The notes under the pieces were generated by a model. The model was not told the DNA's origin. It saw only the letters and a program-made list of their open reading frames with translations, and made no database searches. From Nemertoderma westbladi (lineage: Eukaryota > Animalia > Xenacoelomorpha): a stretch of DNA of 64,000 nt. Shown piece after piece: positions 3,537-51,120 of the stretch. The position numbers and the translations under genes are program-made. The stretch covers positions 62,001 through 126,000 of the forward strand of contig JAUCBJ010007613.1 of the NCBI GenBank assembly GCA_032718475.1, given 5' to 3'. The first letter of the stretch is position 1. Every line of letters begins with the position of its first letter.

Positions 3537-3578
3537 CTTCCTTTAGATCGGTAGCTGGTAGGTTCTGGATTCTAATAC

Positions 3579-8025: not shown

Positions 8026-8050
8026 AGTTCAGTAGTTGGTAGTTTTACAC

Positions 8051-18007: not shown

Positions 18008-19758
18008 TCATGCAAGGCAAATGTGCGCCCTGGAAAGTCATTTTAAATCATTCGTGCAGAATCGAAAACGTCAAAACTCAATATCGCATTCGCACGGATT
18101 TCAATGATGTAGGCACAGGCAACCAGTATGACGTCACCTGGTGGCCTGTAAAATGACAAAATGACACTTCCGGTATCCATCAGATAGCAGACAGCAGAAG
18201 TGACAGGACACGACTGCACTACTCCTGCAACACAGAGAGTAGCCTACCGATGTAGGCATACTGCAGTACTGCTAATTACTGACTGGGAAAATTCATATAG
18301 TTCTTATGGGATTTGTTCCCAATCCTACAATAACAGACAACATTACTCACCAGCGCCTAGAACAATCCACCAGGTCACCGGGTCCGTCGTCCGTTCTCTA
18401 TTATATCGTGGGTTACAACTTATATTTCCGTCACTCTATTCCGCCGTGGGGAGGGGCTTCACTCGCGGTCAAGCGAGCAAGGTAACTTTGGCAATCAGGT
18501 AACTCTATTGGCTGATTGGGTTTGGCAGTTTGGGTATTTATATTAAGGTGCAGGGAGAGCCTGGAGTCTGTTTGGGAGGTTTGGACATCCTTATAAAAGG
18601 AGCTCTAGAATTATCAGCCCAGTCAAGGCTTACACGTGGCCCAGGGGAAGAAATACTTGGAGTACCGCAACCGGCCCTCCTTATTTCCTTCCCGGCTATA
18701 GAATCTTCACAAAGGATTCTTTTAGCCAACGTGATAATAAGAACTTTTGAATTTAAAATAAAATCGCAGTTCTTCACAATTTCGTCGGCTCAGCAGCCTT
18801 GGTGATTAGTGGACTACGGCAGCTCTTCACCAAAGACTCTGTAGTCTGTAGTCTGCGATCAATTTACTTTAGATTACCTCGCATATCGAGTGTCTTTTGT
18901 CAGTTGGTCATCAACCAGTGTATATGCGCTGGGTAGGACAGACGTTCGCTTCCGCAACGGGTCGAAAATTTGCCCTGGAAAAATTATAATCAATCCAAGT
19001 CATTATTATTGTTTTTCCGCCAAATTTAATTTAATTTTTGGCACAAACCTATATGTTTACCGGCTGAATCAAACTGTCAATGTCAAACCGCGTTCTGACA
19101 TTTAATTGGCCAAACCTGCAAACATCCTTTTATATTGCGACATTTCTGCTGGGAACGTACCGGTCTGTCGGTAGTTTACCGTGTAGATTTGCAATATATA
19201 TAATTACCGGTACGGTACCTGTAATAAATTTTATACTGGTACCTATACTCTAAACACAACCCTATTCATACATTAGGGAACTAAGCTCAATCAGCGGTAG
19301 TTTTTGTGAATGAGTAGACCTAAACTTTCAGGTGTATTTGAGTTGTTTATGGTTTTGCACTTTTGTGTGTGTGTTTGTTTTATATACAGATATAGGCCTA
19401 CCTAGGCCAATACAGTCTTGATCCTGTTTTCTATCAGTCTGTGTCCCTGCTACCGTACATTTGCGAGTAGCCTAGGCCTACCGGTCTTAAATATCTAATC
19501 TGAACACAGGTAGGCCTAATATTTTAGTTATTCATGATTATAATCTGATGATCTGTGAAGTTGTGCATTTTCACATTCCCACATTCAGATTAATTCAAAT
19601 TTTAATTCCAAGAAATTTCAAATTTAAATTCTGAGTACCGGTACTGGTAATATTTTGCATAAATTAAATAAATATATACCTTCTGCTTCTGTTCAGATTT
19701 AGTGGTATACCGGTATCAGGAGTTTTGCCTATCAGCCTATACTGCTATATATACCGGT

Positions 19759-19778
19759 ATATATATATATATATATAT
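19759..19778. repeat. (TA)n microsatellite, left flank of element A
   Basis: Direct reading. Confidence 0.95.
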
Positions 19779-20810
19779 CTTAAACGACACCATAAGGCCA
19801 TGATATATACAGATGTGGCCTTTGTGTGAAATTTGATTTATATCGGGGCCATATAGTGTAAATTGTGGCGGTAGTGCGTAACGCCTATATGGCCATGTGG
19901 CTATTGTGACAGAGGCCGGATATTATTGAAATTAAGAAATTTTTTGATTGATTTTACATAAATTTTGTGAGTCAGAAATATATCACATATTAGATTATTC
20001 GTACATTTATGATACTTAACGTGTAAAAATAAGCATAAATAATTTATCGGTCATGCTTATTATTAGACAACTTGTATTGTTAATGTTTCGATGTGTAAAG
20101 TGGTCATTGCCACGACCTAATACTGTATTATTTTAATTCTTAACTAACTATTATTAGGGACTTATAACATCTGTCTATCTATCAAATAATTAATAAACAA
20201 CTTAATTTTTCAATTACAGGCCCATTTTTACAGCCATTTAAATATTGCGGGACGAAACGCCCTAGAATGCCTAGATCCATAACGCCTGTTACGCCCATTA
20301 TCCAAATTATTATCCGACGAAATACCCGTTATCGAAATACTGACACTGATGCCGGTCAGTCACAATCTAATACTAAGTCCTCCTAAAGGGGGCGGGGCGA
20401 GCAATGAGAAATGCAAATAAATTGTCTAAAAACTAATTTTAATTATTATTAAATTTAAAAGAATTAGAATAAAAAAGCACAAAGAATTGAATTATTAAGA
20501 AGATAGGCCTAACTAAACTATATGATTAAAATACAACTAGACGATTAGATTCCAAGAATCAAATATTTCGGGGATGGTTCTATAACTCTGAAAAACTAAA
20601 CTAAATAACTTGGAATTATTTGTTTATAATCATTTATAGATCATATTTTTATATGCAGAAACATTATACATTTTTCCAATAAAATTGGGTCCAAATATGA
20701 GGCTTGCCAACAACAATGTTCAGGATTAGCTCTTGTGAGTTATAGAACCCCCACTTCACTTAACTATGAATTTAACTAGGCCGACAGATATGATATAACG
20801 TTCGGTTTGT

Positions 20811-23800
20811 TTAAGGTTTGGCATGTTTCATCTTTAGTTTGAGAACGTTGAGTCGTTGGTATATTTGTTTGTCAGTTTTTCCGGGAAATAGACGACGGAC
20901 AGAGGCAATTTTGGTATTATTTCTCGGAATCCGCTTTCCGTTTATCTCTTCTCTGAAGGCTTCGCAGAGACGTACAGATGAATTCGGTGACCAAACAGCC
21001 CGCTTGGATTTCAGCAGTTGTTTAATCTTCCTCGTATTATTCACATTCCTAAACAAGAAAGTATGAAATATGTAAGATTACATGAGAATGTATGAATGAA
21101 TATAAAAAAAACAATACGATGGGATAATACTGTAATTAATAAGCGGACAATTCCGACCCGAACACTTGCGACCCGGAAAATGCAACACCGACAATTCCGA
21201 CCCGAACACTTGCGACCCGGAAAATCCAACACCGACAATTCCGACCCGAACACTTGCGACCCGGAAAATCCAACACCGACAATTCCGACCCGAGCACTTG
21301 CGACCCGGAAAATCCAACACCGACAATTCCGACCCGAACACTTGCGACCCGGAAAATCCAACACCGACAATTCCGACCCGAACACTTGCGACCCGGAAAA
21401 TCCAACACCGACAATTCCGACCCGAACACTTGCGACCCGGAAAATCCAACACCGACAATTCCGACCCGAACACTTGCGACCCGGAAAATCCAACACCGAC
21501 AATTCCGACCCGAACACTTGCGACCCGGAAAATCCAACACCGACAATTCCGACCCGAACACTTGCGACCCGGAAAATCCAACACCGACAATTCCGACCCG
21601 AACACTTGCGACCAGGAAAATCCAACACCGACAATTCCGACCAGAACACTTGCGACCCGGAAAATCCAACACCGACAATTCCGACCCGAACACTTGCGAC
21701 CCGGAAAATCCAACACCGACAATTCCGACCCGAACACTTGCGACCCGGAAAATCCAACACCGACAATTCCGACCACCAAACCGACAATTCCGACCCGAAC
21801 ACTTGCGACCCGGAAAATCCAACACCGACAATTCCGACCCGACCACTTGCGACCCGGAAAATCCAACACCGACAATTCCGACCTGAACACTTGCGACCCG
21901 GAAAATCCAACACCGACAATTCCGACCAGAACACTTGCGACCCGGAAAATCCAACACCGACAATTCCGACCCGAACACTTGCGACCCGGAAAATCCAACA
22001 CCGACAATTCCGACCCGAACACTTGCGACCCGGAAAATCCAACACCGACAATTCCGACCACCAAACCGACAATTCCGACCCGAACACTTGCGACCCGGAA
22101 AATCCAACACCGACAATTCCGACCCGAACACTTGCGACCCGGAAAATCCAACACCGACAATTCCGACACGACCACTTGCGACCCGGAAAATCCAACACCG
22201 ACAATTCCGACCCGAACACTTGCGACCCGGAAAATCCAACACCGACAATTCCGACCCGAACACTTGCGACCCGGAAAATCCAACACCGACTATTGCGGCC
22301 CAATTAAGTTTCATGGATATTTTAGTGGGTCGGAATTAGCTGTCCTTGTTAATAAGCATTTAGACTATTTGTAGTAAATCGTTCTTAATTAAAATTTATC
22401 GCTATTTTACATGTAATATTCGATATACTGTGCTCGTTTATAAGTTGTTCGCTGCAAGAAGTCAATAAAATCTCAATCTATATTATTATGTGGGTAGGAT
22501 ATAGGGTTGATTGTCTGGGTCATAATTAATTGACAGTATACCATAAACACCAACAACAAAATTTTATAGTAGCATATTATAATTTGCATTGTTTGTGTTT
22601 TTATGGTGGTGATATAATAAATATTAATAAATAAATAATATTGGCCTGAAGTCAAAACAAAACTATAATTATATAAATAAAAAACAAACTTTTCTCTTGA
22701 AGGTGAAACGTCTATAGCATTGGAATCTGGTCCTATAGCATTGGAATCTGGTCCTATAGCATTGGAATCTGGTCCTATAGCATTGGAATCTGGTCCTATA
22801 GCATTGGAATCTGGTCCTGTAGCATTGGAATCTGGTCCTGTAGCATTGGAATCTGGTCCTGTAGCATTGGAATCTGGTCCTATAGCATTGGAATCTGGTC
22901 CTATAGCATTGGAATCTGGTCCTATAGCATTGGAATCTGGTCCTATAGCATTGGAATCTGGTCCTATAGCATTGGAATCTGGTCCTATAGCATTGGAATC
23001 TGGTCCTGTAGCATTGGAATCTGGTCCTATAGCATTGAAATCTGGTCCTATAGCATTGGAATCTGGTCCTATAGCATTGGAATCTGGTCCTGTAGCATTG
23101 GAATCTGGTCCTATAGCATTGGAATCTGGTCCTGTAGCATTGGAATCTGGTCCTGTAGCATTGGAATCTGGTCCTGTAGCATTGGAATCTGGTCCTGTAG
23201 CATTGGAATCTGGTCCTGTAGCATTGGAATCTGGTCCTGTAGCATTGGAATCTGGTCCTGTAGCATTGGAATCTGGTCCTGTAGCATTGGAATCTGGTCC
23301 TATAGCATTGGTGTCTGGAGCAGTAGAACCAGGATGTGAAAGAGCAAAGTTGAATGCCCTTTGATGTCTATCACGTGCTGATAAAGCCTCACTGGTTGAC
23401 TGAACAGCCTCATATATCCGTAATTGTGTTTCCCTAGAATGACCCATTGAGTGAGCAGCGTTTTCTTTTTCATGGACTTCTCCTGGTAGTCTTTGGTTGA
23501 AAAAACTCTTGGCGTGCCGAAAACTAGTCGATCCTGCCTTCGACTTGGAACCTGGGACGAGTTTTTGCCACAGGTTATTAAGTGGGATGCTGGTGTTGCT
23601 AAGTTGCTCTCCATTACGTGTCACAAATACGAAACTTGAATCAGAAGACAACGTACGAGAAGTGTATAATGTGCGACCGATATAAACCCATTTCTTTAAT
23701 AAAACGTAATCCTTATAGCTAATGATAATTTTCTGTGGTCCATAAAATCCTGAGGTCTTGTGATTTGGTACTTGAAAAATAAACACATTATTACCGCTGA

Positions 23801-26800
23801 TATCTGTGGTTACAAAACCCTCCTTGAAATGTTTCACTTTTAAGTTCTTTACAACACACTCTCGCAATCCCAGGTCGTATATTATTAGACTTATAAGATA
23901 CGTTTGCATTTCTGTCAGTTCGTCTTTGTCATCAACGTCAGGTAACCTTGTAATATTGTCGCGAATTTTATCAATATATGAAGACGTCTGAAACTTATTT
24001 ATCTCCTCAGCTGTAGGCATGGTTTCCGTAGCCCTTTGGCGAACTGTATAGGCGTGCTTTCTAACATCGGACTTCTGTCGCCGTTGTAAATCTTTTGTCA
24101 CTGTCAGGCCTTTCACGGCCCCGCTAACATCATTTAAGACAAGAAATTCAAAGTATCTCTGAAGTCTCCTTAGTACGGCTTTCAGTGTATTGGCAGACCG
24201 GGTGCCACCACCACGAATTTTCTCAGAAGCTACTTGACAGTATGCATTATGTAATTTTTGTGGATCACTTATCTCATCGAACCTTAGTATGTAGTTCTCT
24301 TTATTATCACCCATATGTTTAAAGAATGTTCTCACACTCGAAGCTATCATTAAGATATCCCTCTCTCTTTCTTTTAATGATTCTTCATTATAATCTGCTT
24401 TCAAATAATCCATAAATTGATCCATCATAGGAGGTTCACCTGGTTCACCAGCGTCAATAGCAGGTAGTATATAACGACTTGGATCATGTAACATTCGTTC
24501 ACGCTCTGGATCTCCGGGTAGAAGATTGTGTTTACAAGTCAGATGGTCACCAATCTTATAAAAACATTTATTGCAAATTAAGCACCGCGATATTCGACGA
24601 TTCGGTTTCTTTTTACCACTTTTATATAATCTTATCACACCAGATTTCTTAAAATATAGTTCTTTACTCTCCAGAGACAGCCGGCTTAAAACCCCGGCAT
24701 GTTGTATTTGGTGTCGATTGCGTAGATGATCATTAATTCGAAGCGTTTCTTTGTGACAGAGTTTACAGATTCTAGGTATATGAGAGTCTTTTGATTTTTG
24801 TGGCATGGAAACATCATCACAATCTCCATTGGTATCAATGCAATCTACGGAGAAAAAAACAAATGATATAATGAAGTATAAATAATTTGAATACTGGAGG
24901 GCTTATCTGAACTAAGTTAATGTATAATCAACTCAATATATAACTGACTGGGACTGTATTGTCGAGCCACGAAGTGAGCGAAGCCTTAGCATATGGGTAC
25001 CATTAACGAGTTGTCTGTCGTAGTCGTCACACGTCTAACTTTTGATCACTAATAACTTTGTAATTCCTTGATGATATTAAACCAAACTTTGTATGTACTG
25101 TATGTAGTACGTCAAAAGTTTAGAAAGAATATGAGGTTTGGTCAAAAATCAGACAGTCTGTCAGTCGGTACCGGTAGGTATTCTAGCGGTACCGCATCAC
25201 TTCGTCTAGGTTTAATAACTTTAGCATTGCATCAATTTTGATGAAACTTTCACAGATTGACGTATGGAATATTCGTAATTCAATGAGTACATAGAGTTTA
25301 TAGCTTCCCACAATTTCACGGTCCGTCACTAGGAGGCGCTAAATATCCACTTCGTCTAGACGCCGTACCTGGGCGGGAAATTTACAAATTGTCCCTCCAT
25401 CCACTAATTGCATTCATAAGAGAGGCAGGTGTATGCTGGCCCGGTTGATGTTTACATACTTACTGTATATAGAAGCTCAGCTGAGAAGTGGATTGGTTGC
25501 AAGTACTATAGATTACAGCTTCTCAGGTTAACTGAGTCTCGTGCTGCGCGAAAGCCCCACAAACATGTATCTTACTGTATTTACGCGAATAAGTTATACC
25601 CCACCCACCCCGCCCGGGGGTGGGGTATAGGCAGGGCCGCATTTAGGAAAAGACCAACTACGCCAGAAATAGTAAATAATAAATGTAGTATAACTAGTAA
25701 GCTAAATTATATATTACCAACAAACTGAGGGGGTAGATTCTGGGGTCTAATCTACGCCGCTAACAGATATGATACCAACCATTCTGCTGGGTCGTAGCCG
25801 CATCAAACTCCTCCTGTGTCGTGGCCGCATCAAACTCCTCCTGTGTCGTGGCCGCATCAAGCTCCTGAAAAATATCACCGACACCCTGGTAACATGTGTC
25901 ATTGTTGGCCATCTGTTGCATGGCAATGCCTGCGTTCGGCAGTGTAGATGGTTGTGGAACATCATGCCACGATGCAGAAGCGTTAACCGATGGACCTGCG
26001 TTAAAATATAGGGCAACAAAATATACAATCACAGTAAGGAAGGATGGAATGTGCCCTTTGTTATGAAACTGGCGTTTGTGACACTTAGAAAAACACCATC
26101 GACATTTGACACTCTAAGCAAGATTATATTTTACTTCTCGATATATGGCTTGGCTGTCTGTCTGTCTACCCGATAGTCTATTTTAAAAAGTTTAAACCTA
26201 CCTCCATGTTTTTCTGAACTTCCATCATCTTCATCCAATAAACTTTCTAGTTCTTCTAAGTCAGGTGGTATTTCTGAACTTCCATCAACTTCATCCAATA
26301 AACTTTCTGGTTCTTCTAAGTTAGGTGGTGCGACGCTGTTATCTGTAATAAATTAATTGGTGTTGAGCTAATGAAACTAAAAATTAAGGAACAGTCATGT
26401 TTCAGGTGCCGAAAAATGCTACACCAGACCAGACCGTACAGTTACGTATACAAGTATACAATTAATACAGCAATACAGAATTACTAAAATATTATTAATT
26501 TATGAGTTTGTACAGTGAATTTGAACAGGCTAGGGGGGGGGGGGGGGGGGGAGCTAGAGTATTATTGGTTCATTATTTTGGGCATGGTTAGTCAGCCCCC
26601 AATCCTAATTAAAACTGTCATGCAAAAATGCTCAATGCTTACATAGGGTTAGGTATTTGACTAAAAATGCTGGTACCGGTAACAAAATTCACCTGACTCA
26701 CCTCGATCGAGATCTAGCCCCAACTCAATAAGAGTATTTCGATTTTGAATTGTATTAACCGGTGTATCTATTCGCCCGGACGAATAAACGAATGAACCCC

Positions 26801-28440
26801 TGCAAATATATAAAGTTCATTGCAGGACGCAATTCACTGAATTTCAGGGCGTACAGTTCTCTTAAATACCGGTAGGCCTATATCAGATCTGTACATATTA
26901 TCATATAAATAAGAAAAATATATAATAATTAATAATAACATAATAATAATAATATATAATAATAGCCATACATCCATGAAAAAATTTAGCTTCCTATACG
27001 TTAGGCGTAATTTGGGACATCATATAGGCTATAGGTTTAAAAAATAAATATTGTGATTGTAAAAAATTGTGATTGTGCTTTACTATTTTCAGTTTTTTGT
27101 CTGTCTGTATCAGTAGGCTACCTGTTGTAGCATACTGATCACTGATGCGCTTTGAAATCACCCAATATACAAAACTAGCAACTACCGGTAGTACATTTTA
27201 CACCCTACACATTTTACCCTGTACATTTTTCACATATTTTTCTAAAATGTTTTATGTCCCAAATTCCCCCAGTTGACCCTATCTTTAATTCAATGACCAC
27301 CTAAACCTAACAATGAGACCAGTATTACATCGCCCTAACCTACTACCGGTATTGTAGACTCACTCATTCACATAAGGAGATATATTTTAACCAGCCAATA
27401 TGATGCTCATGCCTTTACATCATAGTTCTTACCTTTGAACGGGAACAACTGCTCTTTTTTTCGAAGGTGTAAAGCAATCCTTGGCTCTAATCAATTGTTC
27501 CTCCGCCAGGTTGAACGAATCTGTAATATAAATTAAACTCATGTCATGGTACCGTTATCTAAAGTAAAGCATAGTACTGTAGTACATAGTAGGTCGTCAA
27601 CCCGGTCCCACTTGGTGTAGTAGTAAAACTGGTAACAGTTAAATACCTTGGTGTAGTGGTTGCATTTGCATTGAATTCACATCTCTCTGTAGGTCGCGGG
27701 TTCAATCCCCCCCCCCCCCCCCCCCCCCCCACATGCCACATGGGCAAGGGCAGTTTTCGTTTCGGCACGAATGCTTTAAAGGGGACTAGCCAGGGCGCAT
27801 CTGAGCCTTTCATCCTTAATTGGTAGCTAAATGGGTACAGGTACTGCAGTTTCCTCTGGGGAGTAAAGTTCTGGGGGGACCGCACTGGAAATAAGTCGTC
27901 AGACTTTGTGTGTAAACCCGCCCCCGGCACCCGGCTAACGGCCGAAGAAAATTTACTTCACTTTACTTTAGGGCTACCGGCAGACCGGTACTTTTTACAG
28001 TGTTTTACTAAAAAATATCTGCCGGTAGGTAAAGGTCTGCCACTCTGCCAGGCTAGTAGCCTGGCAGAGTGGCAGACCTTTACCTTTACCTACCTTTACC
28101 TACAGGTAGGGTAGCCTGAGGCTACCCTACCTGTCACCTGTACAGGCAGACATGTACCGGTAATTATTCAGTAGAGCTAGACAGCTAGAGGCTTACCTTT
28201 TTGATCGATAATAAAAACATCGTAATGTTCCCAGTCCAGCATATCAGATGGTTCCAACATTGATTGTTTCCTAAGTTTTTTAAACTTTTCATTAGATAAT
28301 CTCTGGATGTTTGAAGGGTAAGGGCAGTAAGTTACCCGTACCGTTTCGCCATTTCCATCCACCTCATTATCAGTCGACAACCAACGGGTCGGGACTGTTA
28401 ATAGACTATTATCGACAATAAACTTCACCACGGAGAACAT
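20811..28440 (-). CDS. 7-exon zinc-finger tyrosine recombinase, 1059 aa; exons 28440-28197, 27520-27433, 26799-26702, 26342-26202, 25995-25780, 24844-22690, 21048-20811
   Basis: All six introns are GT-AG with matching phases (1,2,1,1,1,2); total 3180 nt, no stops. Two CxxC-x9-H-x4-H fingers; YR motifs GLRE, HKT, SFRH and MGHSRETQLRIY; (GPDSNA[TI])n; C-terminal Myb/SANT-like exon (VWSPNSSVRLCEAF...KTDKQIYQRL). Confidence 0.8.
21145..22348. mobile_element. MULE-like non-autonomous insertion with an internal 44-bp tandem array (~26 copies) in the last YR intron
   Basis: 9-bp direct repeat TTAATAAGC at 21136-21144 and 22349-22357. Ends GGACAATTCCGACCC / GGGTCGGAATTAGCTGTCC. Unit ccgacaattccgacccgaacacttgcgacccggaaaatccaaca. 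Confidence 0.7.
22714..23310 (-). repeat. 21-bp coding minisatellite (~28 copies), (GPDSNAT/I)n
   Basis: Direct reading; in frame with the YR ORF. Confidence 0.95.
27648..27970 (+). mobile_element. tRNA-derived SINE in YR intron 1
   Basis: A-box-like ggtgtagtggtt, B-box gggttcaatccc, tttac(t)-type tail; second copy at 17890-18007. Confidence 0.65.
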
Positions 28441-29029
28441 TATGCCAAGCGCCAAGGTTAATTATGTAGGCCTAAAGGAAATGCATTTAGGAAATGCGCA
28501 AATGTGAAGTTAAGGGCTAAATGCTGAAATGCTTTACAGCTTTAGGCTGTTAGGCCTACGACTTTCATTCAGACTACCGGTAAGAGAGAACAAGTTTGCA
28601 GCACTGCATTTACTGTACTACCATGGCCATGGTACTACTGCATTAACGCGGATGAATATTACAACAATACAACAGAAATCTAATATTCCATTAAGACAAT
28701 GATGAACTTCAATTATATTGCTTTGAAAACACCTGTTTTCAAGATAAAGATTTAATATGATAACTTTCATACCAGTAGCCAAACGTAACATATTTAGAAT
28801 GACAAAATTATTCTCTTCAAAATATCCTATTTCAAAATCAAAAACAATTTAACCCAGCAAAATATGTCTTAGGGCGTACTACATTATTAACGAAATTGTG
28901 ATAAGGGGGGGGGGGGGGGGGGGGGGGGGGGTGGTGGTGGTGCTGCCGGGTAGTGGCCTACGTAGTATTCTTCACATGGGGAAAACTGCGAAGTGAAATA
29001 TAACAGCAGAAAGTTTGGTGTACTTTACA

Positions 29030-31390
29030 TGACGTTAGTTATTGAATTGGGAAACTACTTGTTTGGGGTATGAATTCGGATATGATTACAAATGAAAAAA
29101 TAATGTTACAAACGTTTAAATAGACTAACGCGAAATGATATATCTCAAATCTATATAAAGTGTCCATATAGGGTAACTTTATATCAACACTAAATGGCCA
29201 GTATTATACAGTATGTAGTTCCAGGCACACAGGCATACCGAGATATCAAACTTTATTTGATATGGCCATAGTGGCAAATTTCGACGGAATTGGGTAAGTC
29301 TCAAAGGTCACAGTTTCCATACAGTGAAAACACATAAATCAGGGAAATAAGTATTCTTATAGCTGGAAAAATGTCCCTTTTGGTATAGAGTAAAAAGCGA
29401 TGAGATGACGCTTTTAATTATTCATCATTGATCATTCATTATTCGTCATCACGTTATTCTAACCAAAATAATAAACTAAAGTCAGTAGAACATGTTACAG
29501 TTTCATTTTTTCGAGTAATCAGCTGTTTTTTTGCCGTGTGAAGAATACCAGGTTTTTACTTTCGGTCGAAATTTTATTGGAATTGTATATGTGAAGAATA
29601 TAACCTCTACAGATACTAAATCGTTTATTGTTTTGGTTAGATTCAGCCCTTCTGTAACCTGCATTTTTAGTGAAAACCTGTATTCTTCACATTGCATTGG
29701 GCTTAACTGCAAAGTACAGCAAAGTACCTGGAGAGGGATTAATTTTGATTGCATCGTAAATCCCCCTAGCTATCCGTCATGGTTAGAAACGCTATGACAA
29801 AGTTTCAATTCCTTAGACTAAATTATATATCACAAACCTACATAAAGTGTCCATATAGGGTAATTTATTAATCAACACTAAATGGCCAGTGTACAGTAGT
29901 TCCAGGCATACTGAGAAATCAAATTTACATTGATCTGGCCATAATGGCGAATTTCCACATGATATTGACTACGGATTTATGGCCACAGTGGCCATACAGA
30001 GAAATGGCACAGAAGATATCACCATAAAAGATGAAAGCCCACAACTAAAGTGATTTCTTACATACTGTATATTTAATCTGTCTGTATTTAAGGTCTGTAT
30101 TTAAATCTGTATTTAAGGTCGGTCGGTCGGTCGGTCGGTCGGTCGGTCGGTCGGTCGGTCGGTCGGTCGGTCGGTCGGTCGGTCGGTCGGTCGGTCGGTC
30201 GGTCGGTCGGTCGGTCGGTCGGTCGGTCGGTCGGTCGGTCGGTCGGTCGGTCGGTCGGTCGGTCGGTCGGTCGGTCGGTCGGTCGGTCGGTCGGTCGGTC
30301 GGTCGGTCGGTCGGTCGGTCGGTCGGTCGGTCGGTCGGTCGGTCGGTCGGTCGGTCGGTCGGTCGGTCGGTCGGTCGGTCGGTCGGTCGGTCGGTCGGTC
30401 GGTCGGTCGGTCGGTCGGTCGGTCGGTCGGTCGGTCGGTCGGTCGGTCGGTCGGTCGGTCGGTCGGTCGGTCGGTCGGTCGGTCGGTCGGTCGGTCGGTC
30501 GGTCGGTCGGTCGGTCGGTCGGTCGGTCGCCACTATACGGCCATATCAAATAAATTTTGATATCTCGGTATGCCTGGAACTACAAAACACTGTTCATTAA
30601 GTAGTGTTGAGTTAAATTTACCCTATATATGGACACTTTATATAGATTTGGGATATGTAATTTAGTCTAAGGAATTGAAACTTTGTAACAGCGTTTCTAA
30701 CCATAAACAATAATTGCCGTTACTTTACCAACAGTATTTTTTTTCATTATTGTAATCATACCCCAAACAAGCAGATCCCCAATTCAATAACTAAAAGTCA
30801 GGAGATAGGCCTACTCTCATTACGTGACTAACATACTGTAGCTTCGGGTACTCACAATAAAATTGTTAGCATGATGATCTCATTAACTTCTAAATTATTC
30901 TTCAAATGTAACTTTGAATTCATTTAACTCTCAAAATTACTGTAAATCCAAACAAGACTAGTATATAACATCTCTACATTGTATTATCTAAAAAAAATAC
31001 AAATTTCCGATGAGAACTATTATTATAGCTAGCTGCCTGTACCCATACAGATTAAATAAATGTAAGAAATCACTTTAGTTGTGGGCTTGCATCTTTTAAT
31101 GTGATATCTTCTCTGCCATGGCCACTGTGGCCATAAATCCGTAGTCAATATCATGTGGAAATTCGCCATTATGGCCAGATCAATGTAAATTTGATTTCTC
31201 TGTATGCCCGGAACTACTGTTTAACACTGGCCATTTAGTGTTGATAAATAAATTACCCTATATGGACACTTTATATAGGTTTGTAATATTTAATTAAGTC
31301 TAAGGAAATGAAACCTTGTCACAGAGTTTCTAACCATGACAGCTAGCTAGGGGGACTTTCGATGCAATCAAAATTAATTCCTCTCCTCCA
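29030..31390. repeat. Dispersed direct and inverted repeats (~270-340 bp) around a (GGTC)n tract
   Basis: 29030-29280 is inverted at 30530-30795; 29730-30065 is inverted at 31060-31385; the two units share a core (taaagtgtccatatagggtaa...aaatggccagt). Confidence 0.8.
30117..30528. repeat. Perfect (GGTC)n microsatellite, ~103 units
   Basis: Direct reading. Confidence 0.97.
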
Positions 31391-32646
31391 GGGGAAAATC
31401 CTGGGTAAATAACAGCTGAACTGTTGTTACCTGTTCTATTAAATTAAATTTTTGTATTGTTAGAATAACGAGCCATTGTGACCTGCTCCTTTCCATTAAT
31501 TGTTTATTTAACAATGAGGCGAGATTTTCAATTCTTCAATATTCCAGACCTCAAATGGTCCAAATAAAATCAAAGTAATATAAACGTGTGTAATCACAAA
31601 AGATATTAAAATTATGTAAGTATGTATTTATTGAAATGATGAGTAAAATACATTTTGATATTAATTTAGCAGTAGCAATATTAAATTAGCAGATTCGAAT
31701 TCAATAACTAACGCCAGGAGATACTCTCATTACGTGACTAACATTTATCTTTCAATTTAAGTGATTGTATATTTCTTAGTAAAGAAACATATGATACAGA
31801 GATAGGTTCATTATAAGAACCAAAATAATAAACCACCTAGAGGAAATATTGACGCACGACCCAACGATGCAATGTAGAAGCAATGGATGTACAGTAGGAT
31901 GTACAGTAGGACCTACACCCCCTATGAATGGAGCAGTATTTCATCAATTTAATGGCATGTCCTAATTGTATGGGAATGAATCGTCCTCTTGTTTAGATTA
32001 TCAACGATAAGAGGTTGAGACTGATCTACTATCAAATTAAAAATGACGAGTGAAAATTGAGTTGCCAATATTTCAGCCACTACAGTTTTTTTTAAACAAT
32101 ACGAGTATTTTTAATTAAAACTGTTTAGGGCTTACTAAATAGTAAATCTCGTTTTATTATAATTTTTAAAATATTATTTTAACTATTAAATTAGCTTTTT
32201 GTTCATTAAATCATCTCCTGAATAGTCATAAACCACATTAGTATAATAATTACAGCCGTTCCATAAAAATTTCGTTGTAAGTACTCTCACCATTAAATCA
32301 TAAAGAAACAACAATTGCCCTTTTGCAATACCTTAACATGCCGTCAGGGGGTGCTCCAATTTACACTTATTCACTGTCATTATTTTATATATATATATTG
32401 CACATAATGGACACGTGGCCCTAGTGTGTATCTTTTGAAACTAAAAGCAAATAGCAACTAAACGCAATATGGCCACTTTTACTTGACAATCAATTTTGGA
32501 AAGTTTCTATGATTAAAAATACACCTTATCATTTGTAGTGCCATATTTCAAGGACACAGAGGTTCTGAAAACGTTTCAAGTCTTAAAATTAATATAAAGG
32601 GCAATATATTCACTTTGTTAAATGTGGCCATATTGACCGTTTTAAG

Positions 32647-32660
32647 ATATATATATATAT
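32647..32660. repeat. (AT)7 spacer shared between elements A and B
   Basis: Direct reading: ...ttttaag atatatatatatat g tacgttc... Confidence 0.9.
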
Positions 32661-32899
32661 GTACGTTCTGCCTAAAGGGCCATAGATATGTATCTTTGAA
32701 ATGAAGGGTATTATGTACCTATATAATACAGAATGGAAGTAAAAAGGGCCATTAGTATATCTACATATCTTGTGTATATATGTTCCTACATATACCATTT
32801 TAATATACATACATAAAGATGAAATAACGAGCGAAAGGGCCAACTTATATATCTATATAGTGAGATATGTAGGTATAGTGTACCTATATAACTCAATGG

Positions 32900-35800
32900 C
32901 CCTATCTTATTTCTCTTCATTCTTACAGTTCAGTTTATTTGTAAGATCAATTTGGATGGAAATGGGCCACTGTAAATGATGTATATTTGTGGCCCTAATG
33001 TAAATCATCTCATTCTTTATGATAGTAAAGGTGGCCCTTTTCCCGTTCATTTAATTTAATAAATCAATTTTGAAACAAATGGGCCAGTCAAACTTTCTCA
33101 AAAAATGACATGAATAGTAACATGAATTGTAAGACTTGCAATGTAATTACCACAGTTAAGTAAACTAAAATAATAAAAGTTTTAATTATGCATTATTTTT
33201 GTTTGAACATATTTTATGTATGGTTGATATATCTTCTTGAAATTTGGTAAGAGTGACCTACACCTACAAGCATTGTTTATTTAGAAATTCTAAATTCAGA
33301 CAGACTTTAAAGTTCCCCTGTCTGCCGCTAGGGGGGCGTATTGACAGAATCGTAGAAGTAGCTGTGTAATTATAGAACCAACCACCAGATTCCATCTGAA
33401 ATTTGGTAGGAGTGAACAAGGAGAATTGCATAATTATAAATTCTATGCCTAGACGGACTTTTATAGTTCTTATGTTCGTTATTCGTTACTATGTTCTAGC
33501 TCTAAAGAGCCTTGTCCATAAATATCTCCATGGCGCTACAGTATGGCCCTAATGCTGTTAAGCTCATTGTATTTCATTCTGGCCCTTTTTCAGTTCAGTT
33601 TATTGGTAAGATCAATTTGGATGCAAAAGGCCACTGTAAAAGATGTATATTTGTGGCCCTAATGTAAATCATCTCATTCTTTATGATAGTAAAGGTGGCC
33701 CTTGTCCCGTTCATTTAATTTAATAAATCAATTTTGAATCAAATGGGCCAGTCAAACTTTCTCAAAAAATGACATGAATAGTAACATGATTTGTAAGACT
33801 TGCAATGTAATATTTACCTCAGTTAACCTAAAACTAAAATAATGTAGATTTTAATAAACATTATTTTTGTTTGAACATATTTTATGTACTGTACGGTTAG
33901 ACTTTCAAGTTCCCATGTCTTCAACGGGCAGTTATCGCCGTTGCTTAAGTAGAAATTATACACACAGACAGACTTTAAAGTTCCCCTGTCTGCCGCTAGG
34001 CGGGCGAATTGACAGAATCGTAGAAGTAGCTGTGTAATTATAGAACCAACCATCAGATTCCATCTGAAATTTGGTATGAGTGAACAAGGAGAATTGCATA
34101 ATTATAAATTCTATGCCTAGACGGACTTTTATAGTTCTTATGGTCGTTATTCGTTACTATGTTCTAGCTCTAAAGAGCCTTGTCCATAAATATCTCCATG
34201 GCGCTACAGTATGGCCCTACCCTAATGCTGTTAAGCTCATTGTATTTCATTCTGGCCCTTTTTCATCTCAGTTTATTGGTAAGATCAATTTGGATGCAAA
34301 AGGCCACTGTAAAAGATGTATATTTGTGGCCCTAATGTAAATCATCTCATTCTTTATGATTGTAAAGGTGGCCCTTTTCCCGTTCATTTAATTTAATAAA
34401 TCAATTTTGAATCAAATGGGCCAGTCAAACTTTCTCAAAAAATGACATGAATAGTAACATGATTTGTAAGACTTGCAATGTAATATTTACCTCAGTTAAC
34501 CTAAAACTAAAATAATGTAGATTTTAATAAACATTATTTTTGTTTGAACATATTTTATGTACTGTACGGTTAGACTTTCAAGTTCCCATGTCTTCAACGG
34601 GCAGTTATCGCCGTTGCTTAAGTAGAAATTATACACACAGACAGACTTTAAAGTTCACCTGTCTGCCGCTAGGGAGGCGAATTGACAGAAACGTAGAAGT
34701 AGCTGTGTAATTATAGAACCAACCATCAGATTCCATCTGAAATTTGATAGGAGTGAACAAGGAGAATTGCATAATTATAAATTCTATGCCTAGACGGACT
34801 TTTATAGTTCTTATGGTCGTTATTCGTTACTATGTTCTAGCTCTAAAGAGCCTTGTCCATAAATATCTCCATGGCGCTACAGTATGGCCCTAATGCTGTT
34901 AAGCTCATTGTATTTCATTCTGGCCCTTTTTCATCTCAGTTTATTGGTAAGATCAATTTGGATCTGAAATTTGGTAGGAGTGAACAAGGAGAATTGCATA
35001 ATTATAAATTCTATGCCTAGACGGACTTTTATAGTTCTTATGTTCGTTATTCGTTACTATGTTCTAGCTCTAAAGAGCCTTGTCCATAAATATCTCCATG
35101 GCGCTACAGTATGGCCCTAATGCTGTTAAGCTCATTGTATTTCATTCTGGCCCTTTTTCAGTTCAGTTTATTGGTAAGATCAATTTGGATGCAAAAGGCC
35201 ACTGTAAAAGATGTATATTTGTGGCCCTAATGTAAATCATCTCATTCTTTATGATAGTAAAGGTGGCCCTTTTCCCGTTCATTTAATTTAATAAATCAAT
35301 TTTGAATCAAATGGGCCAGTCAAACTTTCTCAAAAAATGACATGAAAAGTAACATGATTTGTAAGACTTGCAATGTAATATTTACCTCAGTTAACTTAAA
35401 ACTAAAATAATGTAGATTTTAATAAACATTATTTTTGTTTGAACATATTTTATGTACTGTACGGTTAGACTTTTCAAGTTCCCATGTCTTCAACGGGCAG
35501 TTATCGCCGTTGCTTAAGTAGAAATTATACACACAGACAGACTTTAAAGTTCACCTGTCTGCCGCTAGGGAGGCGAATTGACATAAACTTAGAAGTAGCT
35601 GTGTAATTATAGAACCAACCATCAGATTCATCTGAAATTTGGTAGGAGTGAACAAGGAGCATTGCATAATTATAAATTCTATGCCTAGACGGACTTTTAT
35701 AGCTCTTATGTTCGTTATTCGTTACTATGTTCTAGCTCTAAAGAGCCTTGTCCATAAATATCTCCATGGCGCTACAGTATGGCCCTAATGCTGTTAAGCT

Positions 35801-38340
35801 CATTGTATTTCATTCTGGCCCTTTTTCATCTCAGTTTATTGGTAAGATCAATTTGGATGCAAAAGGCCACTGTAAAAGATGTATATTTGTGGCCCTAATG
35901 TAAATCATCTCATTCTTTATGATAGTAAAGGTGGCCCTTTTCCCGTTCATTTAATTTAATAAATCAATTTTGAATCAAATGGGCCAGTCAAACTTTCTCA
36001 AAAAATGACATGAAAAGTAACATGATTTGTAAGACTTGCAATGTAATATTTACCTCAGTTAACTTAAAACTAAAATAATGTAGATTTTAATAAACATTAT
36101 TTTTGTTTGAACATATTTTATGTACTGTACGGTTAGACTTTTCAAGTTCCCATGTCTTCAACGGGCAGTTATCGCCGTTGCTTAAGTAGAAATTATACGA
36201 ACAGACAGACTTTAAAGTTCACCTGTCTGCCGCTAGGGAGGCGAATTGGCAGAAACGTAGAAGTAGCTGTGTAATTATAGAACCAACCATCAGATTCATC
36301 TGAAATTTGGTAGGAGTGAACAAGGAGCATTGCATAATTATAAATTCTATGCCTAGAAGGACTTTTATAGCTCTTATGTTCGTTATTCGTTACTATGTTC
36401 TAGCTCTAAAGAGCCTTGTCCATAAATATCTCCATGGCGCTACAGTATGGCCCTAATGCTGTTAAGCTCATTGTATTTCATTCTGGCCCTTTTTCATCTC
36501 AGTTTATTGGTAAGATCAATTTGGATGCAAAAGGCCACTGTAAAAGATGTATATTTGTGGCCCTAATGTAAATCATCTCATTCTTTATGATAGTAAAGGT
36601 GGCCCTTTTCCCGTTCATTTAATTTAATAAATCAATTTTGAATCAAATGGGCCAGTCAAACTTTCTCAAAAAATGAAATGAATAGTAACATGATTTGTAA
36701 GACTTGCAATGTAATATTTACCTCAGTTAACTTAAAACTAAAATAATGTAGATTTTAATAAACATTATTTTTGTTTGAACATATTTTATGTACTGTACGG
36801 TTAGACTTTTCAAGTTCCCATGTCTTCAACGGGCAGTTATCGCCGTTGCTTAAGTAGAAATTATACGCACAGACAGACTTTAAAGTTCACCTGTCTGCCG
36901 CTAGGGAGGCGAATTGACAGAAACGTAGAAGTAGCTGTGTAATTATAGAACCAACCATCAGATTCATCTGAAATTTGGTAGGAGTGAACGAGGGGCATTG
37001 CATAATTATAAATTATATGCCTAGACGGACTTTTATAGTTCTTATGTTCGTTATTCGGTACTATGTTCTAGCTCTAAAGACCCTTATCCATAAATATCTC
37101 CATGGCGCTACAGTATGGCCCTAATGCTGTTAAGCTCATTGTGTTTCATTCTGGCCCTTTTTCATCTCAGTTTATTGGTAAGATCAATTTGGATGGAAAT
37201 GGGCCACTGTAAATGATGTATATTTGTGGCCCTAATGTAAATCATCTCATTCTTTATGATAGTAAAGGTGGCCCTTTTCCCGTTCATTTAATTTAATAAA
37301 TCAATTTTGAATCAAATGGGCCAGTCAAACTTTCTCAAAAAATGAAATGAATAGTAACATGATTTGTAAGACTTGCAATGTAATATTTACCTCAGTTAAA
37401 CTAAAACTAAAATAATGTAGATTTTAATAAACATTATTTTTGTTTGAACATATTTTATGTACTGTATGGTTAGACTTTCAAGTTCCCATGTCTTCAACGG
37501 GCAGTTATCGCCGTTGCTTAAGTAGAAATTATACACACAGACAGACTTTAAAGTTCACCTGTCTGCCGCTAGGGAGGCGAATTGACAGAAACGTAGAAGT
37601 AGCTGTGTAATTATAGAACCAACCATCAGATTCATCTGAAATTTGGTAGGAGTGAACAAGGAGCATTGCATAATTATAAATTCTATGCTTAGACGGACTT
37701 TTATACTGTAGTTCTTATGTTCGTTATTCGTTACTATGTTCGAGCTCTAAAGAGCCTTGTCCATAAATATCTCCATGGCGCTACAGTATGGCCCTAATGC
37801 TGTTAAGCTCATTGTATTTCATTCTGGCCCTTTTTCATCTCAGTTTATTGGTAAGATCAATTTGGATGCAAAAGGCCACTGTAAAAGATGTATATTTGTG
37901 GCCCTAATGTAAATCATCTCATTCTTTATGATAGTAAAGGTGGCCCTTTTCCCGTTCATTTAATTTAATAAATCAATTTTGAATCAAATGGGCCAGTCAA
38001 ACTTTCTCAAAAAATGACATAAATAGTAACATGATTTGTAAGACTTGCAATGTAATATTTACCTCAGTTAAACTAAAACTAAAATAATGTAGATTTTAAT
38101 AAACATTATTTTTGTTTGAACATATTTTATGTACTGTACGGTTAGACTTTTCAAGTTCCCATGTATTCAACGGGCAGTTATCGCCGTTGCTTAAGTAGAA
38201 ATTATACGAACAGACAGACTTTAAAGTTCACCTGTCTGCCGCTAGGGAGGCGAATTGACAGAAACGTAGAAGTAGCTGTGTAATTACAGTATGGCCCTAA
38301 TGCTGTTAAGCTCATTGTATTTGATTCTGGCCCTTTTTCA
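32900..38340. repeat. ~668-bp satellite, ~8 copies, left subterminal region of element B
   Basis: Marker ggccctaatgtaaatcatctc recurs at ~32992, 33655, 34328, 35223, 35891, 36559, 37228 and 37900. A diverged copy lies at ~50430-50650. Confidence 0.95.
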
Positions 38341-38369
38341 AAGGAAATTGTCCTAAGGAAATTGTTTAA

Positions 38370-38715
38370 ATTGGGATCTAAGTCTACCTAAGATCTAAGT
38401 ACGCTTTGCTTTCAACGTGGGGATCTATAAGTTCGCCTTGCGACTAGCATGATGATTTCCAAAGGCTTTTAATAGCATAAATTGGGATCTAAGTTCACCT
38501 AGTTAGGATCTAAGTTCACCTAGTTAGGATCTAAGTTCACCTAGTTAGGATCTAAGTTCACCTAGTTATGATCTAAGTTCCCCCAGGCAGGATCTAAGTT
38601 CACCTAGTTAGGATATAAGTTCACCTAGCTAGGATCTAAGTTCACCCAGATAGGACCTAAGTTCGGAAAGATCTAAATTCATCAAAGTCAGACCTTGCAG
38701 GATCTAAGTTCGTTT
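38370..38715. repeat. 21-bp tandem repeat ggatctaagttcacctagtta upstream of the element-B YR gene
   Basis: Direct reading; about 8 good copies plus degenerate ones. Confidence 0.9.
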
Positions 38716-38916
38716 TACCGTAGCCTGGTAGCACAAGTATCGGTAGAGTACCGTTACCATATGCAGTAAGCAGTACGTGGTACACCAGCAGAGCAGTAGT
38801 CCTGTACAGCTGTAGTCCTACAGAAGTAGTAGGCCTGCATATATAGACCCACCCCAGCACCCTGCCACCCCACCAGTCAGCCAGTGCTGCAGCCTGCAGA
38901 GCAGCAGTTCAGCAGA

Positions 38917-41900
38917 ATGCCCAAATCAAAGAAGAAAAATTTCCGAATTAATAGAAAGTTGGTCGTTTACAATAATACCCTTACACCTACCAAATTGTCT
39001 GATGGATCGCCCATTACATCCACACCACGCAGGACTACACGCGAACCACAAGATCAAGAAGGTAAGTTTACCTGTTTACTGTTGTGTAGGGTCCGTCTAA
39101 CCGGTAAACACCCAAATCACACCAAATCACAAACCAAATCTGCAAATCACCAATCACAAATCACGGTCCTTCGAACAACGAATTACCGGTACTCAAAAAA
39201 AAAACAAAATTATCCAAAAATACGCAATTTTTTTGGGTAGGCCTACCGGCTGACCGGTAATTCGTATCGTAGGACCCACCAACAGACCAAATCACAAACT
39301 GACAAACCAAACCGCCAAATCACAAAAAATAATCCCAAAAGGGGCCAAAACCAAATCACTCCAAAGTCCAAACCAGATCCAGAGATCACACCGAACAGCC
39401 TTAAATGATAGGCCCTACCAAATCACAACAAATCACACCAAATCACAAAAACAAATTTAAAAGTAAAGGCATGAAAGGAGCAGGTTACAGTTTAGTGTAC
39501 AGTGACAGTGCTGCAGTGCAGCAGTGGTAGCCAGAAGAAACCAAAACAATAAACGATTAGAAAAAAATAAAAATTAGGATTTTTTGTGTGATTTGGCATT
39601 TGGGCTGTTGGGTGTTTGGTGTGATTTGGTCAATTTTGTGTGATTTTGGCTGTTGGGTGTTCAGGCTGTCAGGTCATCAGGTGTTTAGACGGACCGGTCT
39701 GCCGCCCTGCCGGTCTGGTTGTTGCAGTGTTGGTCTGTTGGTTGTGTAAGAAAACATTACCAGATTACAGCATTAATGGCTCTATCCTGTTTGGTACACT
39801 GTGCACTGCCTGACTGCCACTGCACTAGGCGGGTCCGACGAATTTGTACAAAAAAGTACAAAAAAATACAAAATAGTAGGCCTACAAAAGAATACAAAAG
39901 AGTAGGCCTACAATAAAGTGCAAAAATAGTACAAGAGTGCCATAATAGTACAAAAGAGTACAAACGAGTGAGAAACGCTTGCAAAACGTGTAGGCCTATC
40001 CAACTGTAGTTCAAATCGTTTAGAGAGGCGCACATGACAGCATGATGTGCAAATTAAAATAAAGCCTTGTCTGATTGTGGGGCGAACCATGCATTGAGCG
40101 GGGGCTGATCTAGCTGTCTAGCAGTCAGAGAGTACGCCCCTATTACAATACAATCTTATGAGTTTTAATGCAGCCTTTTGTGTTGAAAAAACACAAAAAA
40201 CGGTCCCAAGCCCGCAAAGTTGCAGAGGGAGAACTCAATAAAGTTGCAGATAGAGGCGTACATACAGACATACATAGCCTACATAATGTACAGTAGCATA
40301 CAGTCTATCCTATCCTTCAGTATATGGGCTACTTTAAGACTATGACCTAAATTTTGATTCTCAGTTATAGGAGTTAAATCTACCCACTGCATAGTATTGC
40401 ATTATATTGTATTATACGAACTGTAGCCTGCTATTTCTACTTGTAAGCCAGTCAAAATCTACATGAATCAAAGTCCTGTCAATCATTTCATACTGACCAC
40501 AGAACCAAGGCCGCTAGTCAGCTAGTGATTGACACTGTAGCGGCGCATATTTCGGTCCCGTTGCATTTGCTTACAATTAATTATATTTATATACAAGTGT
40601 AGTGTGTAGTGTAGTGTAGTAGACTACACTGGTATAAACGTTTTGTATGCGTTTCTCACTCGTTTGTACTCTTTTGTACTATTTTTGCACTTTATTGTAG
40701 GCCTACTCTTTTGTACTGTATTGTACTATTTTGTACAGATTGGTCGGACCGCACTAGGCAGCTAGGGCCTACCGCTCTGTTCACAAACCTGTAACCGGTA
40801 GGACTACCGGTCACCAGTAGCGCGGTAGGCCTTTCTTCCAACTAATTTCCACTGATTCAGGCTGTCAGGGTTCCGACTTCCATTAGACCCTAGCCCATTA
40901 GACCCTAGGTTAGGGTTAGAAAAGGTCCAAACTCTAGACAAAAAGTGTCTGAAACCCTACCTGGAACCCTTTGTTAATTTGGGCCCGAAGGGGGAAGGGC
41001 CCAAAATGACAAAAATCTGATTTCAGGGTTCCAACAGCAACAAGGGCTGAAGGATTAGCAGCATGAGGGTTCCAGGTAGGGTTAAGGTTTCAGACCCTTT
41101 TTGTCTAGAGTTTGGACTTGCCGAGTAACAAGTAACTGGAAGTCCGTAAAAAATGGCGCCCCAGGCTGCAGCTGCAGGGCGCCTGCTGCCTGCAGTATAC
41201 CAAACATGATATACCCGCATTACAGCATTACCTACCGGTTACGACACTGCGACAGCCTAACAAATCTGCCACATTCATGTGTAGGGCCTACTCTTTACTC
41301 TACATTTTCTCAGTTATCCGTTTAATTTAGTATAGCCTAGGCCTACTCATTGGACAGTCTGAGTAGGAGGCGTAGGCCTATGGTACCAAAGGCCAATGGT
41401 ACCAAACCAATACCGAATTTTTTTTCATATAGGTGTTTGTATTTGAGTTAAAAATATTTTTTTGTAAAATTTATTTTATCAGCATAAGAAGCGTTACATA
41501 AAGAAGTCCCATGCCAAATTTCAGTCAATTAGGCCTACCTCTTTTCGTTCTCACACACTAACACAAAAACCAAGTTAAAATCTTAATTAAAATCTTAATT
41601 AATTAGGTTTGGTTGGTGCTTGTAGGATAGTCTAATTATGTAGCCTAATTAATTTTACTAATTATAGATTAGACCTACCTGTATTACTAGTTCGGTAGGC
41701 TACCATGCAGCCATGGAAGCACCAGACTTAAGTATCCACCAGACTTAAATGAAATTATCCAGTATTGGCATTGATACGATTTTGTTGCCTGTCTCATAAA
41801 CTTTAATATATACAGGCCCTATATACTCTCCTTTGCCTCAATTTCTAATTGGAACCCCTCTAATGCCCAGTTATCAGGGCCTCTCACTCATTAATTATTG

Positions 41901-43504: not shown

Positions 43505-43585
43505 ACCTGTTCCCTTTACCAACATGCTTGATATACTGTAATAATGTAAAGGTCTACTGTAGTGTACTTACTGTGTGTAACTATA

Positions 43586-43793
43586 ACTGTAGGCTAGGTG
43601 AGATAAATAATGACAACATAAAACTACTGTATTAACTTAAGGAACTACAGTATGTAGGCATACTTATAGTATGTAGGCATCCCCCCCCCCCCCCCCCCCA
43701 CCCGTAGTTTTAGCCCCTGTACAGTAGTACTCATTTCCCAAAGTTATTACAGTAGTTTTATGTTGTCATTATTTATCTCACCTGGCCTACAGT
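43586..43793. mobile_element. Small foldback/MITE with ~53-bp arms
   Basis: actgtaggctaggtgagataaataatgacaacataaaactactgta is inverted at 43741-43793. Confidence 0.75.
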
Positions 43794-47224: not shown

Positions 47225-47876
47225 CCTGAAGTTACCTCAGCTTGACTGATATATAATTAAAATATATTATATTTTAATTAAATATTTTAACTCAAATTAT
47301 ACCGTTACTTCGGTAACAACTCTAATTGTTACTAATGTTTCTATTGAAACTACTAATAACTTTTATTAATTCCGTAAACTCCTTTTAGTAATCATTGTTA
47401 TATTCATGGAATACCTATTAGTAACTTTGTACTTGTTTCACCAATTTTTAGTGGTGGTATACTTTTATGTCCATTAAAAATCTATATTATACCGTTAAAA
47501 CAATATACAGTAGGCTATACTTAAATGTAAATAAATTTTATGATTTTTCAATTCCTAACTTCAAATTGTGCTAAATTCCATATATTTATTTAAAACATTA
47601 CATTGTGCATCTAATATTCTGAATTGTTCTAAAATTCATATTTTTTATTTCGTTTCATCTTTATAATTATTACCTTACCTATTATTGTGCTATATATATT
47701 CAGAATTGTGCTAAATTCCTTATTTATATTTGTCCGTATCTGTCTCTGATGTCCTACAACACACACACACACAGTTTGTCGAGATGCAATAATAAGTAAA
47801 TTACATTATTAACTACGGTATAATTAACATTTTTTATTTTTGGCTCCTAATAGTCGTATTATGAATTTTAATACCT

Positions 47877-51080: not shown

Positions 51081-51120
51081 TATCTATATATATATATATT
51101 GTATATGTATTATATATATT
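51081..51120. repeat. (TA)n-rich right flank of element B
   Basis: Direct reading. Confidence 0.9.

What the first reader, a model, noticed from the sequence alone, without database searches (positions are those of the whole stretch)
20811..28440. Hidden 7-exon, 1059-aa multidomain recombinase joining scattered short ORFs
Seen: six phase-consistent GT-AG introns join five small upstream exons and a terminal exon to the main YR ORF with no stop, even though a SINE and a MULE-like array sit in the introns. Architecture: N-terminal domain MFSVVKF..LLTVPTRW...YCPYP...W..YDVFI...DSFNLAEEQL, acidic repeats, 2 C2H2 fingers, YR with R/K/R/H/Y motifs, a 28x heptad linker, and a Myb/SANT-like domain. 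From memory, the N-terminal pattern resembles that of DUF4806/BEN-type accessory proteins of animal DNA transposons. Inference: an apparently intact, possibly active integrase that gained an N-terminal module absent from the element-B protein.
Basis: partly seen in the sequence, partly recalled or inferred. Interest (0 to 1): 0.78.

Follow-up and report, generated by a model that had tools for sequence, protein, structure and literature searches.

The report
Recombinase transposon splices out its enzyme
A spliced gene predicted to encode a DNA cut-and-rejoin enzyme lies in a 12.9-kb, likely mobile element wedged between TA repeats of an animal genome, and transcripts exist that skip the whole enzyme part, giving a short form that likely acts as a brake on jumping.

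Summary
The 7-exon model is in the sequence as described: six phase-matched GT-AG introns, 1059 aa, no stop. Spliced public contigs confirm introns 1 and 4 exactly. That isoform is 189 aa, holds the N-terminal domain and the Myb-like exon, and has no recombinase. The full-length mRNA was not seen (2 of 6 introns shown). The gene lies in a 12.9-kb unit (19778-32647) between (TA)n tracts, with short imperfect inverted ends. A related 18.4-kb unit (element B) follows at the same TA tract, and all four ends carry GGCCA at positions 19-23. Best reading: a multi-copy, microsatellite-seeking, CryptonV-like DNA transposon whose one gene gives a predicted full-length tyrosine recombinase and a short, catalysis-free isoform, likely a repressor by analogy with the P element. 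The DUF4806/BEN likeness and the 'gain' of the N-terminal module are unsupported. No relatives outside the window were found.

The parts
19778..32647 (.). Element A, 12.9 kb, between two (TA)n tracts; imperfect inverted ends, GGCCA at positions 19-23 from each end (ends uncertain by 1-2 nt inside the TA run)
   Evidence: 16 of 23 ungapped matches, reached by 5 of 127,956 window 23-mers including the two ends; X1 depth steps from about 60 to about 250 at the left tract, X2 shows no such step; right end not tested with reads
19758..19777 (.). (TA)n tract at the left end of element A
32647..32660 (.). (TA)n tract shared by the right end of A and the left end of B
28197..28440 (-). Exon 1 (ATG at 28440), beta-rich N-terminal domain of unknown family
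   Evidence: spliced to exon 2 in X4; X4 contig reaches 28594 upstream; model pLDDT 54
27433..27520 (-). Exon 2; its phase-2 donor is spliced to exon 7 in X4
26702..26799 (-). Exon 3, predicted only
   Evidence: strong splice sites; no contig shown on it
26202..26342 (-). Exon 4, acidic repeat
   Evidence: spliced to exon 5 in X5; acceptor probably used, 6 unaligned letters upstream
25780..25995 (-). Exon 5, acidic repeat
   Evidence: acceptor used in X5; donor predicted
22690..24844 (-). Exon 6: two C2H2-like fingers (24767-24527), recombinase region (R590 at 23864, K625 at 23759, R705 at 23519, H731 at 23441, Y740 at 23414), 28 heptads (22712-23318)
   Evidence: 33% identical to element B's YR piece, E 1e-25, which hits PF00589 at E 0.0064, below cut-off; parts covered by X4 and X5 contigs
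20811..21048 (-). Exon 7, basic (pI 11.6) Myb/SANT-like domain and stop
   Evidence: acceptor used in X4; PF00249 E 0.11
20449..20810 (-). Likely 3' untranslated region
   Evidence: covered by X4 contigs
21136..22357 (.). 44-nt array insertion in intron 6 with 9-nt flanking direct repeat (MULE-like, inferred); a form without it exists
   Evidence: X4 loose end at 21131 resumes at 22364
27640..27960 (+). SINE-like high-copy repeat in intron 1 (limits approximate)
   Evidence: depth over 160,000 against about 190 beside it in X1; second copy at 17925-18069
24963..25570 (.). Further high-copy repeats in intron 5 (limits approximate)
32660..51082 (+). Element B, 18.4 kb, related YR gene broken by a partial duplication and insertions; inverted ends 19 of 23 identical

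Best explanation
This is a spliced gene, predicted to encode a tyrosine recombinase, inside a 12.9-kb likely mobile element between TA repeats, and it makes a transcript that skips the whole recombinase part and likely encodes a repressor of jumping. Shown: the reading frame, the TA-flanked inverted ends, a sister element at the same TA tract, introns 1 and 4, and the exon 2 to exon 7 splice. Exons 3-6 form a cassette between two phase-2 introns, so leaving it out keeps the frame. Inferred: when the cassette is included (probably rarely or in the germ line), a protein of about 1059 aa binds the GGCCA-bearing ends through its zinc fingers and Myb-like domain, excises the element through a phosphotyrosine link at Y740, and reinserts it at (TA)n. 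When the cassette is skipped, a 189-aa protein keeps the N-terminal and Myb-like domains, cannot cut DNA, and would compete for the ends or for partners.
For: Frame and phases. Junctions exon 1-2 (X4, 278-nt contig) and exon 4-5 (X5). The X4 loose end at 21050 is the end of exon 2 (20 of 20 letters at 27435); the pieces add up to 278 nt, the length of that contig. Exons 1-2-7 give 189 aa with no stop. X4 also splices two host-gene introns at GT-AG, so it holds RNA. Three of the four (TA)6+ tracts in the window, counting the imperfect one near 51085, are the junctions of A and B. GGCCA/TGGCC occurs 3-11 times in each terminal 400 nt and 0 times in 1.4 kb of exon 6. Contig depth on the YR exon is about 9 times (X1) and 5 times (X2) that on the host gene, a rough sign of several copies. 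Some CryptonV families insert in microsatellites (PMC8869645, passage). Splicing makes a repressor from the P-element transposase gene (PMC4647562, passages).
Against: The full-length mRNA is a prediction: 2 of 6 introns are shown. X4 holds intron-6 sequence joined to exon 7 (21021-21131, depth 41). The YR-bearing contig in X4 comes from a deleted form (28329 joined to 24790 through 12 other letters) that stops after 41 codons. The skip rests on one contig in one run, and contigs give no strand or level. The His of HxxR is Thr, and the acidic residue three after the first Arg is missing, in both A and B, so activity is inferred. The YR call for A is indirect, through B's sub-threshold Pfam hit; the Myb call is weak. 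X2 shows no depth step at the left TA tract, and its deep cover starts at 19540. Of 11 listed exon variants 7 change a residue and 4 do not, which gives no clear sign of selection. Nothing here tests repression.
Confidence: 0.58

Rival explanations
1. Two functional units share one promoter. A small gene (exons 1-2-7) encodes an accessory protein, and the recombinase is made from another splice form (for example exons 1-4-5-6, ending in intron 6), so the 1059-aa protein is never made.
For: The only splice seen into exon 7 is from exon 2; intron-6 sequence is present in X4; donors 5 and 6 are the weakest; several other exon sets keep the frame; element B lacks exons 1-2 and 7.
Confidence: 0.22
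2. The element and full-length gene are real, but the exon 2-7 form is splicing noise or comes from a defective copy and has no regulatory role.
For: One contig in one run; deleted and insertion-variant forms exist in the same run; introns carry inserted repeats that could disturb splicing.
Against: The skip keeps the frame and joins two intact folded-looking domains; of the five single-exon partners for exons 1 and 7, only exons 2 and 6 give a stop-free frame; its contig depth (31) is like that of the other X4 contigs on the gene (26-35).
Confidence: 0.15
3. A domesticated host gene, or the integrase of a virus-like element.
For: Many introns, transcription, and Polinton-like polymerase fragments at 57.6-61.2 kb.
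Against: Several copies with deletions and indels; TA-flanked inverted ends; the polymerase fragments lie outside A and B; no other non-repeat ORF of 130 aa or more in A; no relative in viral contigs.
Confidence: 0.05

Closest known systems
CryptonV (Kapitonov and Jurka 2012, Repbase Reports 12:2034; not seen, known only from one sentence and the citation in PMC8869645 and from tables in PMC4455052 and PMC5753468)
   Same: Animal DNA element whose only enzyme is a tyrosine recombinase; sits in a microsatellite.
   Different: No CryptonV sequence was available, so kinship is untested; in what I could read, no N-terminal module, Myb-like exon, inverted ends or skipping isoform is described.
CryptonA / CryptonI (Kojima and Jurka 2011, PMC3212892, parts 1-3 of 7 read)
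   Same: YR-only DNA transposons of animals.
   Different: Described as having no C-terminal domain and no terminal repeats, with a DUF3504-type YR; here there are zinc fingers, a C-terminal domain and inverted ends, and no PF12012 hit.
CryptonF (same paper)
   Same: YR followed by a C-terminal DNA-binding domain.
   Different: That domain is GCR1_C, ends are 6-bp direct repeats, hosts are fungi and oomycetes.
Drosophila P element (PMC4647562, passages)
   Same: One transposon gene gives an active enzyme and a shorter catalysis-free form by alternative splicing.
   Different: DDE transposase; the repressor comes from intron retention and truncation, not from skipping an internal four-exon cassette; repression is proven there and only inferred here.

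Membership tests
Tyrosine recombinase superfamily | Catalytic R, K, HxxR, H/W, Y in order | tested here: inconclusive
   R590, K625, R705, H731, Y740 present and shared with B; His of HxxR is Thr in both
Tyrosine recombinase superfamily | Profile or fold match | tested here: inconclusive
   A: no Pfam hit; B piece PF00589 E 0.0064 and XerC E 0.09, below cut-offs; A to B E 1e-25; single-sequence model unusable, pLDDT 34.5
CryptonV | DNA element encoding a YR and no reverse transcriptase | tested here: met
   no other non-repeat ORF of 130 aa or more in 19778-32647
CryptonV | Insertion in microsatellites (some families) | tested here: met
   A and B each flanked by (TA)n; two elements in one window only
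CryptonV | YR groups with Repbase CryptonV proteins | not testable with these tools
   no reference sequence or homologue obtained
CryptonA/I | No C-terminal domain and no terminal repeats | tested here: not met
   exon 7 and inverted ends
CryptonA/I | DUF3504 (PF12012) YR | tested here: inconclusive
   no PF12012 hit for A or B, and B's best hit is PF00589, but A hits neither
CryptonF | GCR1_C C-terminal domain | tested here: not met
   exon 7 hits only PF00249, weakly
DIRS/Ngaro YR retrotransposons | Reverse transcriptase in the element | tested here: not met
   RT-like ORFs of the window lie outside A and B
DUF4806/BEN-type accessory proteins | Profile or fold match of the N-terminal domain | tested here: inconclusive
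   exon 1 only (81 of about 110 residues): no relevant Pfam hit, no true homologue, best Z 2.6 on a pLDDT-54 model
Myb/SANT domain | PF00249 match | tested here: inconclusive
   E 0.11, 13 bits against cut-off 24.4; no PDB sequence hit; not folded

The most novel reading that the evidence does not exclude
A tyrosine-recombinase transposon of animals that controls itself by splicing: its entire catalytic part is one phase-2 exon cassette nested between two DNA- or chromatin-binding domains, so exon choice switches between a TA-microsatellite integrase and a 189-aa repressor or targeting factor. This would be a P-element-like switch evolved independently in a recombinase element, and a natural integrase for TA repeats.
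Probability: 0.3. Interest if true: 0.72.

Novelty: new variant of a known kind. Interest (0 to 1): 0.5.

Why it matters
CryptonV-type elements are barely described in the open literature: 3 papers held both terms, each in passing. This locus gives defined ends, a target repeat, an intact frame and a natural catalysis-free isoform, which makes both the transposition mechanism and its control testable. I found no paper on a splice-made short isoform of a Crypton in searches (listings only); Repbase Reports and subscription journals were not searchable.

Tried and rejected
No whole genome is held, so copies and empty sites could not be counted. No RNA holder listed: runs are labelled 'DNA?', but X4 and X5 proved spliced when laid. 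Junctions 2-3, 3-4 (donor side), 5-6 and 6-7 were not seen. X4 has no cover on exons 4-5, X5 none on exon 3 or the start of exon 6, and X4's exon-7 contig runs unbroken past 21048. Contigs show presence only, and tables were cut (83 joints and 5777 pieces not shown), so this is no evidence of absence. Homologue searches were blank: word index, viral contigs (46, 89), metagenome contigs (59, 66), phages, PDB sequences, PHROGs and NCBIfam (only weak unrelated rows). The three HMMER hits to exon 1 are repeat proteins and were rejected. The single HMMER job went to exon 1, so the YR was never searched sensitively. The protein atlas gave no result. Fold searches of exon 1 gave nothing at E 0.001 or Z 5. 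YadA and Gp350 Pfam hits are heptad artefacts. The hairpin at 18115-18149 and the points 18127 and 19540 were considered as left ends; they have no partner on the right. Rfam miRNA rows are repeat artefacts. Earlier-finding look-ups by place and sequence were blank.

Full report
Observation. Joining the seven minus-strand exons gives 1059 aa without a stop, through six GT-AG introns of phases 1,2,1,1,1,2. Donor sites match the consensus at 6-8 of 9 positions, with introns 5 and 6 weakest. In resampled sequence a chain of four or more such exons arose in 7 of 150 trials with lenient donors and 0 of 150 with strict ones. Under the strict rule the real chain is only 3, and under the lenient rule 5. 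The model is therefore better than chance but not unique.

Protein. Exons 1-2 form a beta-rich domain with no family match (only exon 1 could be tested). Exons 3-5 are an acidic linker. Exon 6 holds two C2H2-like fingers, the recombinase region and 28 heptads; exon 7 is basic and weakly Myb-like. The recombinase call rests on motifs and on 33% identity to element B's piece (E 1e-25), which hits PF00589 below cut-off. The HxxR histidine is Thr in both proteins, so it looks like a family trait rather than damage, but activity is inferred. The canonical motif is from my own knowledge and from PMC3212892 and PMC13465315 (passages).

RNA evidence. Six runs of one organism were listed; I laid four. 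X4 splices two host introns at GT-AG and X5 shows one exact junction, so both are taken as RNA despite their label. X4 joins 28197 to 27520 and X5 joins 26202 to 25995. The X4 contig that holds exons 1-2 ends with exon 7: its loose end at 21050 matches exon 2 at 27435, and the three pieces sum to its 278 nt. That form keeps the frame and encodes 189 aa, because introns 2 and 6 share phase 2. So 2 of 6 predicted introns and 6 of 12 splice sites are shown, the exon-4 acceptor is probable, and exons 1-2 and 7 bracket the recombinase in one transcription unit. Against the simple model: X4 also holds intron-6 sequence joined to exon 7, and its YR contig comes from a deleted form that stops after 41 codons. 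That join is not at GT-AG and carries 12 letters resembling the sequence next to the break, which suggests a DNA repair event (inference). Contigs give neither strand nor level.

The element. The motif that starts element A occurs only twice in the window, inverted, each time against a (TA)n tract. B's ends are likewise inverted (19 of 23, unique in the window) and TA-flanked, and B starts at the tract where A ends. All four ends have GGCCA at positions 19-23; I registered them on that motif, and the TA runs then fall in line. A's ends are weaker (16 of 23; three other window 23-mers reach this). X1 depth rises about fourfold at the left tract; X2 does not show this step and is deep from 19540. 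Depth on the YR exon is 250 against 28 on the host gene in X1, and 110-140 against 22 in X2; exons 1-5 are lower (125-190 and 20-60). This roughly suggests several copies, some lacking the upstream exons, though depth is no copy number. The right end was not tested with reads. The 11 exon variants listed include no stop; 4 are silent and 7 are not.

Mechanism. Shown: frame, ends, target repeat, sister element, two introns, the skip. Inferred: the full-length enzyme binds the end motifs, excises a circle and reintegrates at (TA)n, following the circle model proposed for Cryptons (PMC3212892, part 1). The short isoform lacks all catalytic residues but keeps the basic Myb-like domain, so it would most simply compete at the ends, as the spliced-short P-element protein represses transposition (PMC4647562, passages). 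Repression is untested.

Comparison. It works like a Crypton and fits the one CryptonV trait I could read, insertion in microsatellites (PMC8869645, passage). Membership cannot be tested without reference sequences. It fails the published description of CryptonA/I (no C-terminal domain, no terminal repeats) and lacks GCR1_C and reverse transcriptase. PMC5753468 and PMC4455052 (passages) only list CryptonV. No supplements were read; the original Repbase report was not seen and may already describe the ends and domains. Unchecked notes from this scan describe similar elements in other genomes. I saw one of them before I looked for the TA ends; they are leads, not support.

The gene model stands and is partly confirmed. 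The DUF4806/BEN likeness was a recollection that my tests neither support nor exclude. B lacks exons 1-2 and 7 but has its own predicted short first exon at 38917-39061 in phase with 41922; with two proteins and no outgroup, gain cannot be told from loss.

Verdict. A real, transcribed, multi-copy recombinase element of a little-described kind, with one new feature seen directly: an in-frame isoform that omits the enzyme. New variant of a known kind; interest 0.5.

Noticed in passing
window 32660-51082: Element B: related TA-flanked YR element. Its gene has an intron inside the catalytic domain (about 46409-47097), a duplicated piece (43292-43466 and 45740-45924, 170 of 185 identical) and a 668-nt tandem array near its left end with a diverged copy near its right end.
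   Followed up: partly
window 40162-40233: Twister-P1-like Rfam match (E 7.5e-7, 44.5 bits, cut-off 67.2) inside an inverted-repeat insertion (39825-40757) in element B's first predicted intron.
   Followed up: no
window 16005-17403: Spliced exons of a cysteine-rich host gene on the + strand. Its next exon is not in the window, and X1 and X2 contigs leave the window sequence at 17703, so the region beyond may be polymorphic insertions in one large intron.
   Followed up: partly
window 18127-19745: Multi-copy segment left of element A: 18127-19657 is deep in X1 and not covered in X2, 19540-19745 is deep in X2; an imperfect hairpin lies at 18115-18149. Unexplained.
   Followed up: partly
window 57589-61150: Broken Polinton-like type B DNA polymerase in three frames (PF03175 E 1.6e-7), outside A and B.
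   Followed up: no
window 29035-31386: Nested inverted-repeat element with a (GGTC)103 microsatellite inside element A.
   Followed up: no
window 535-8039: Two related copies of a gag-like retroelement region, about 4.7 kb apart; RT-like ORFs at 11057-12379 and 52080-53063.
   Followed up: no
window 20449-20626: Other copies carry a tandem duplication of this part of the 3' region, seen in both X1 and X4.
   Followed up: no
window 23381-23430: One X2 contig has four residue-changing variants within 50 nt around the catalytic tyrosine codon.
   Followed up: no
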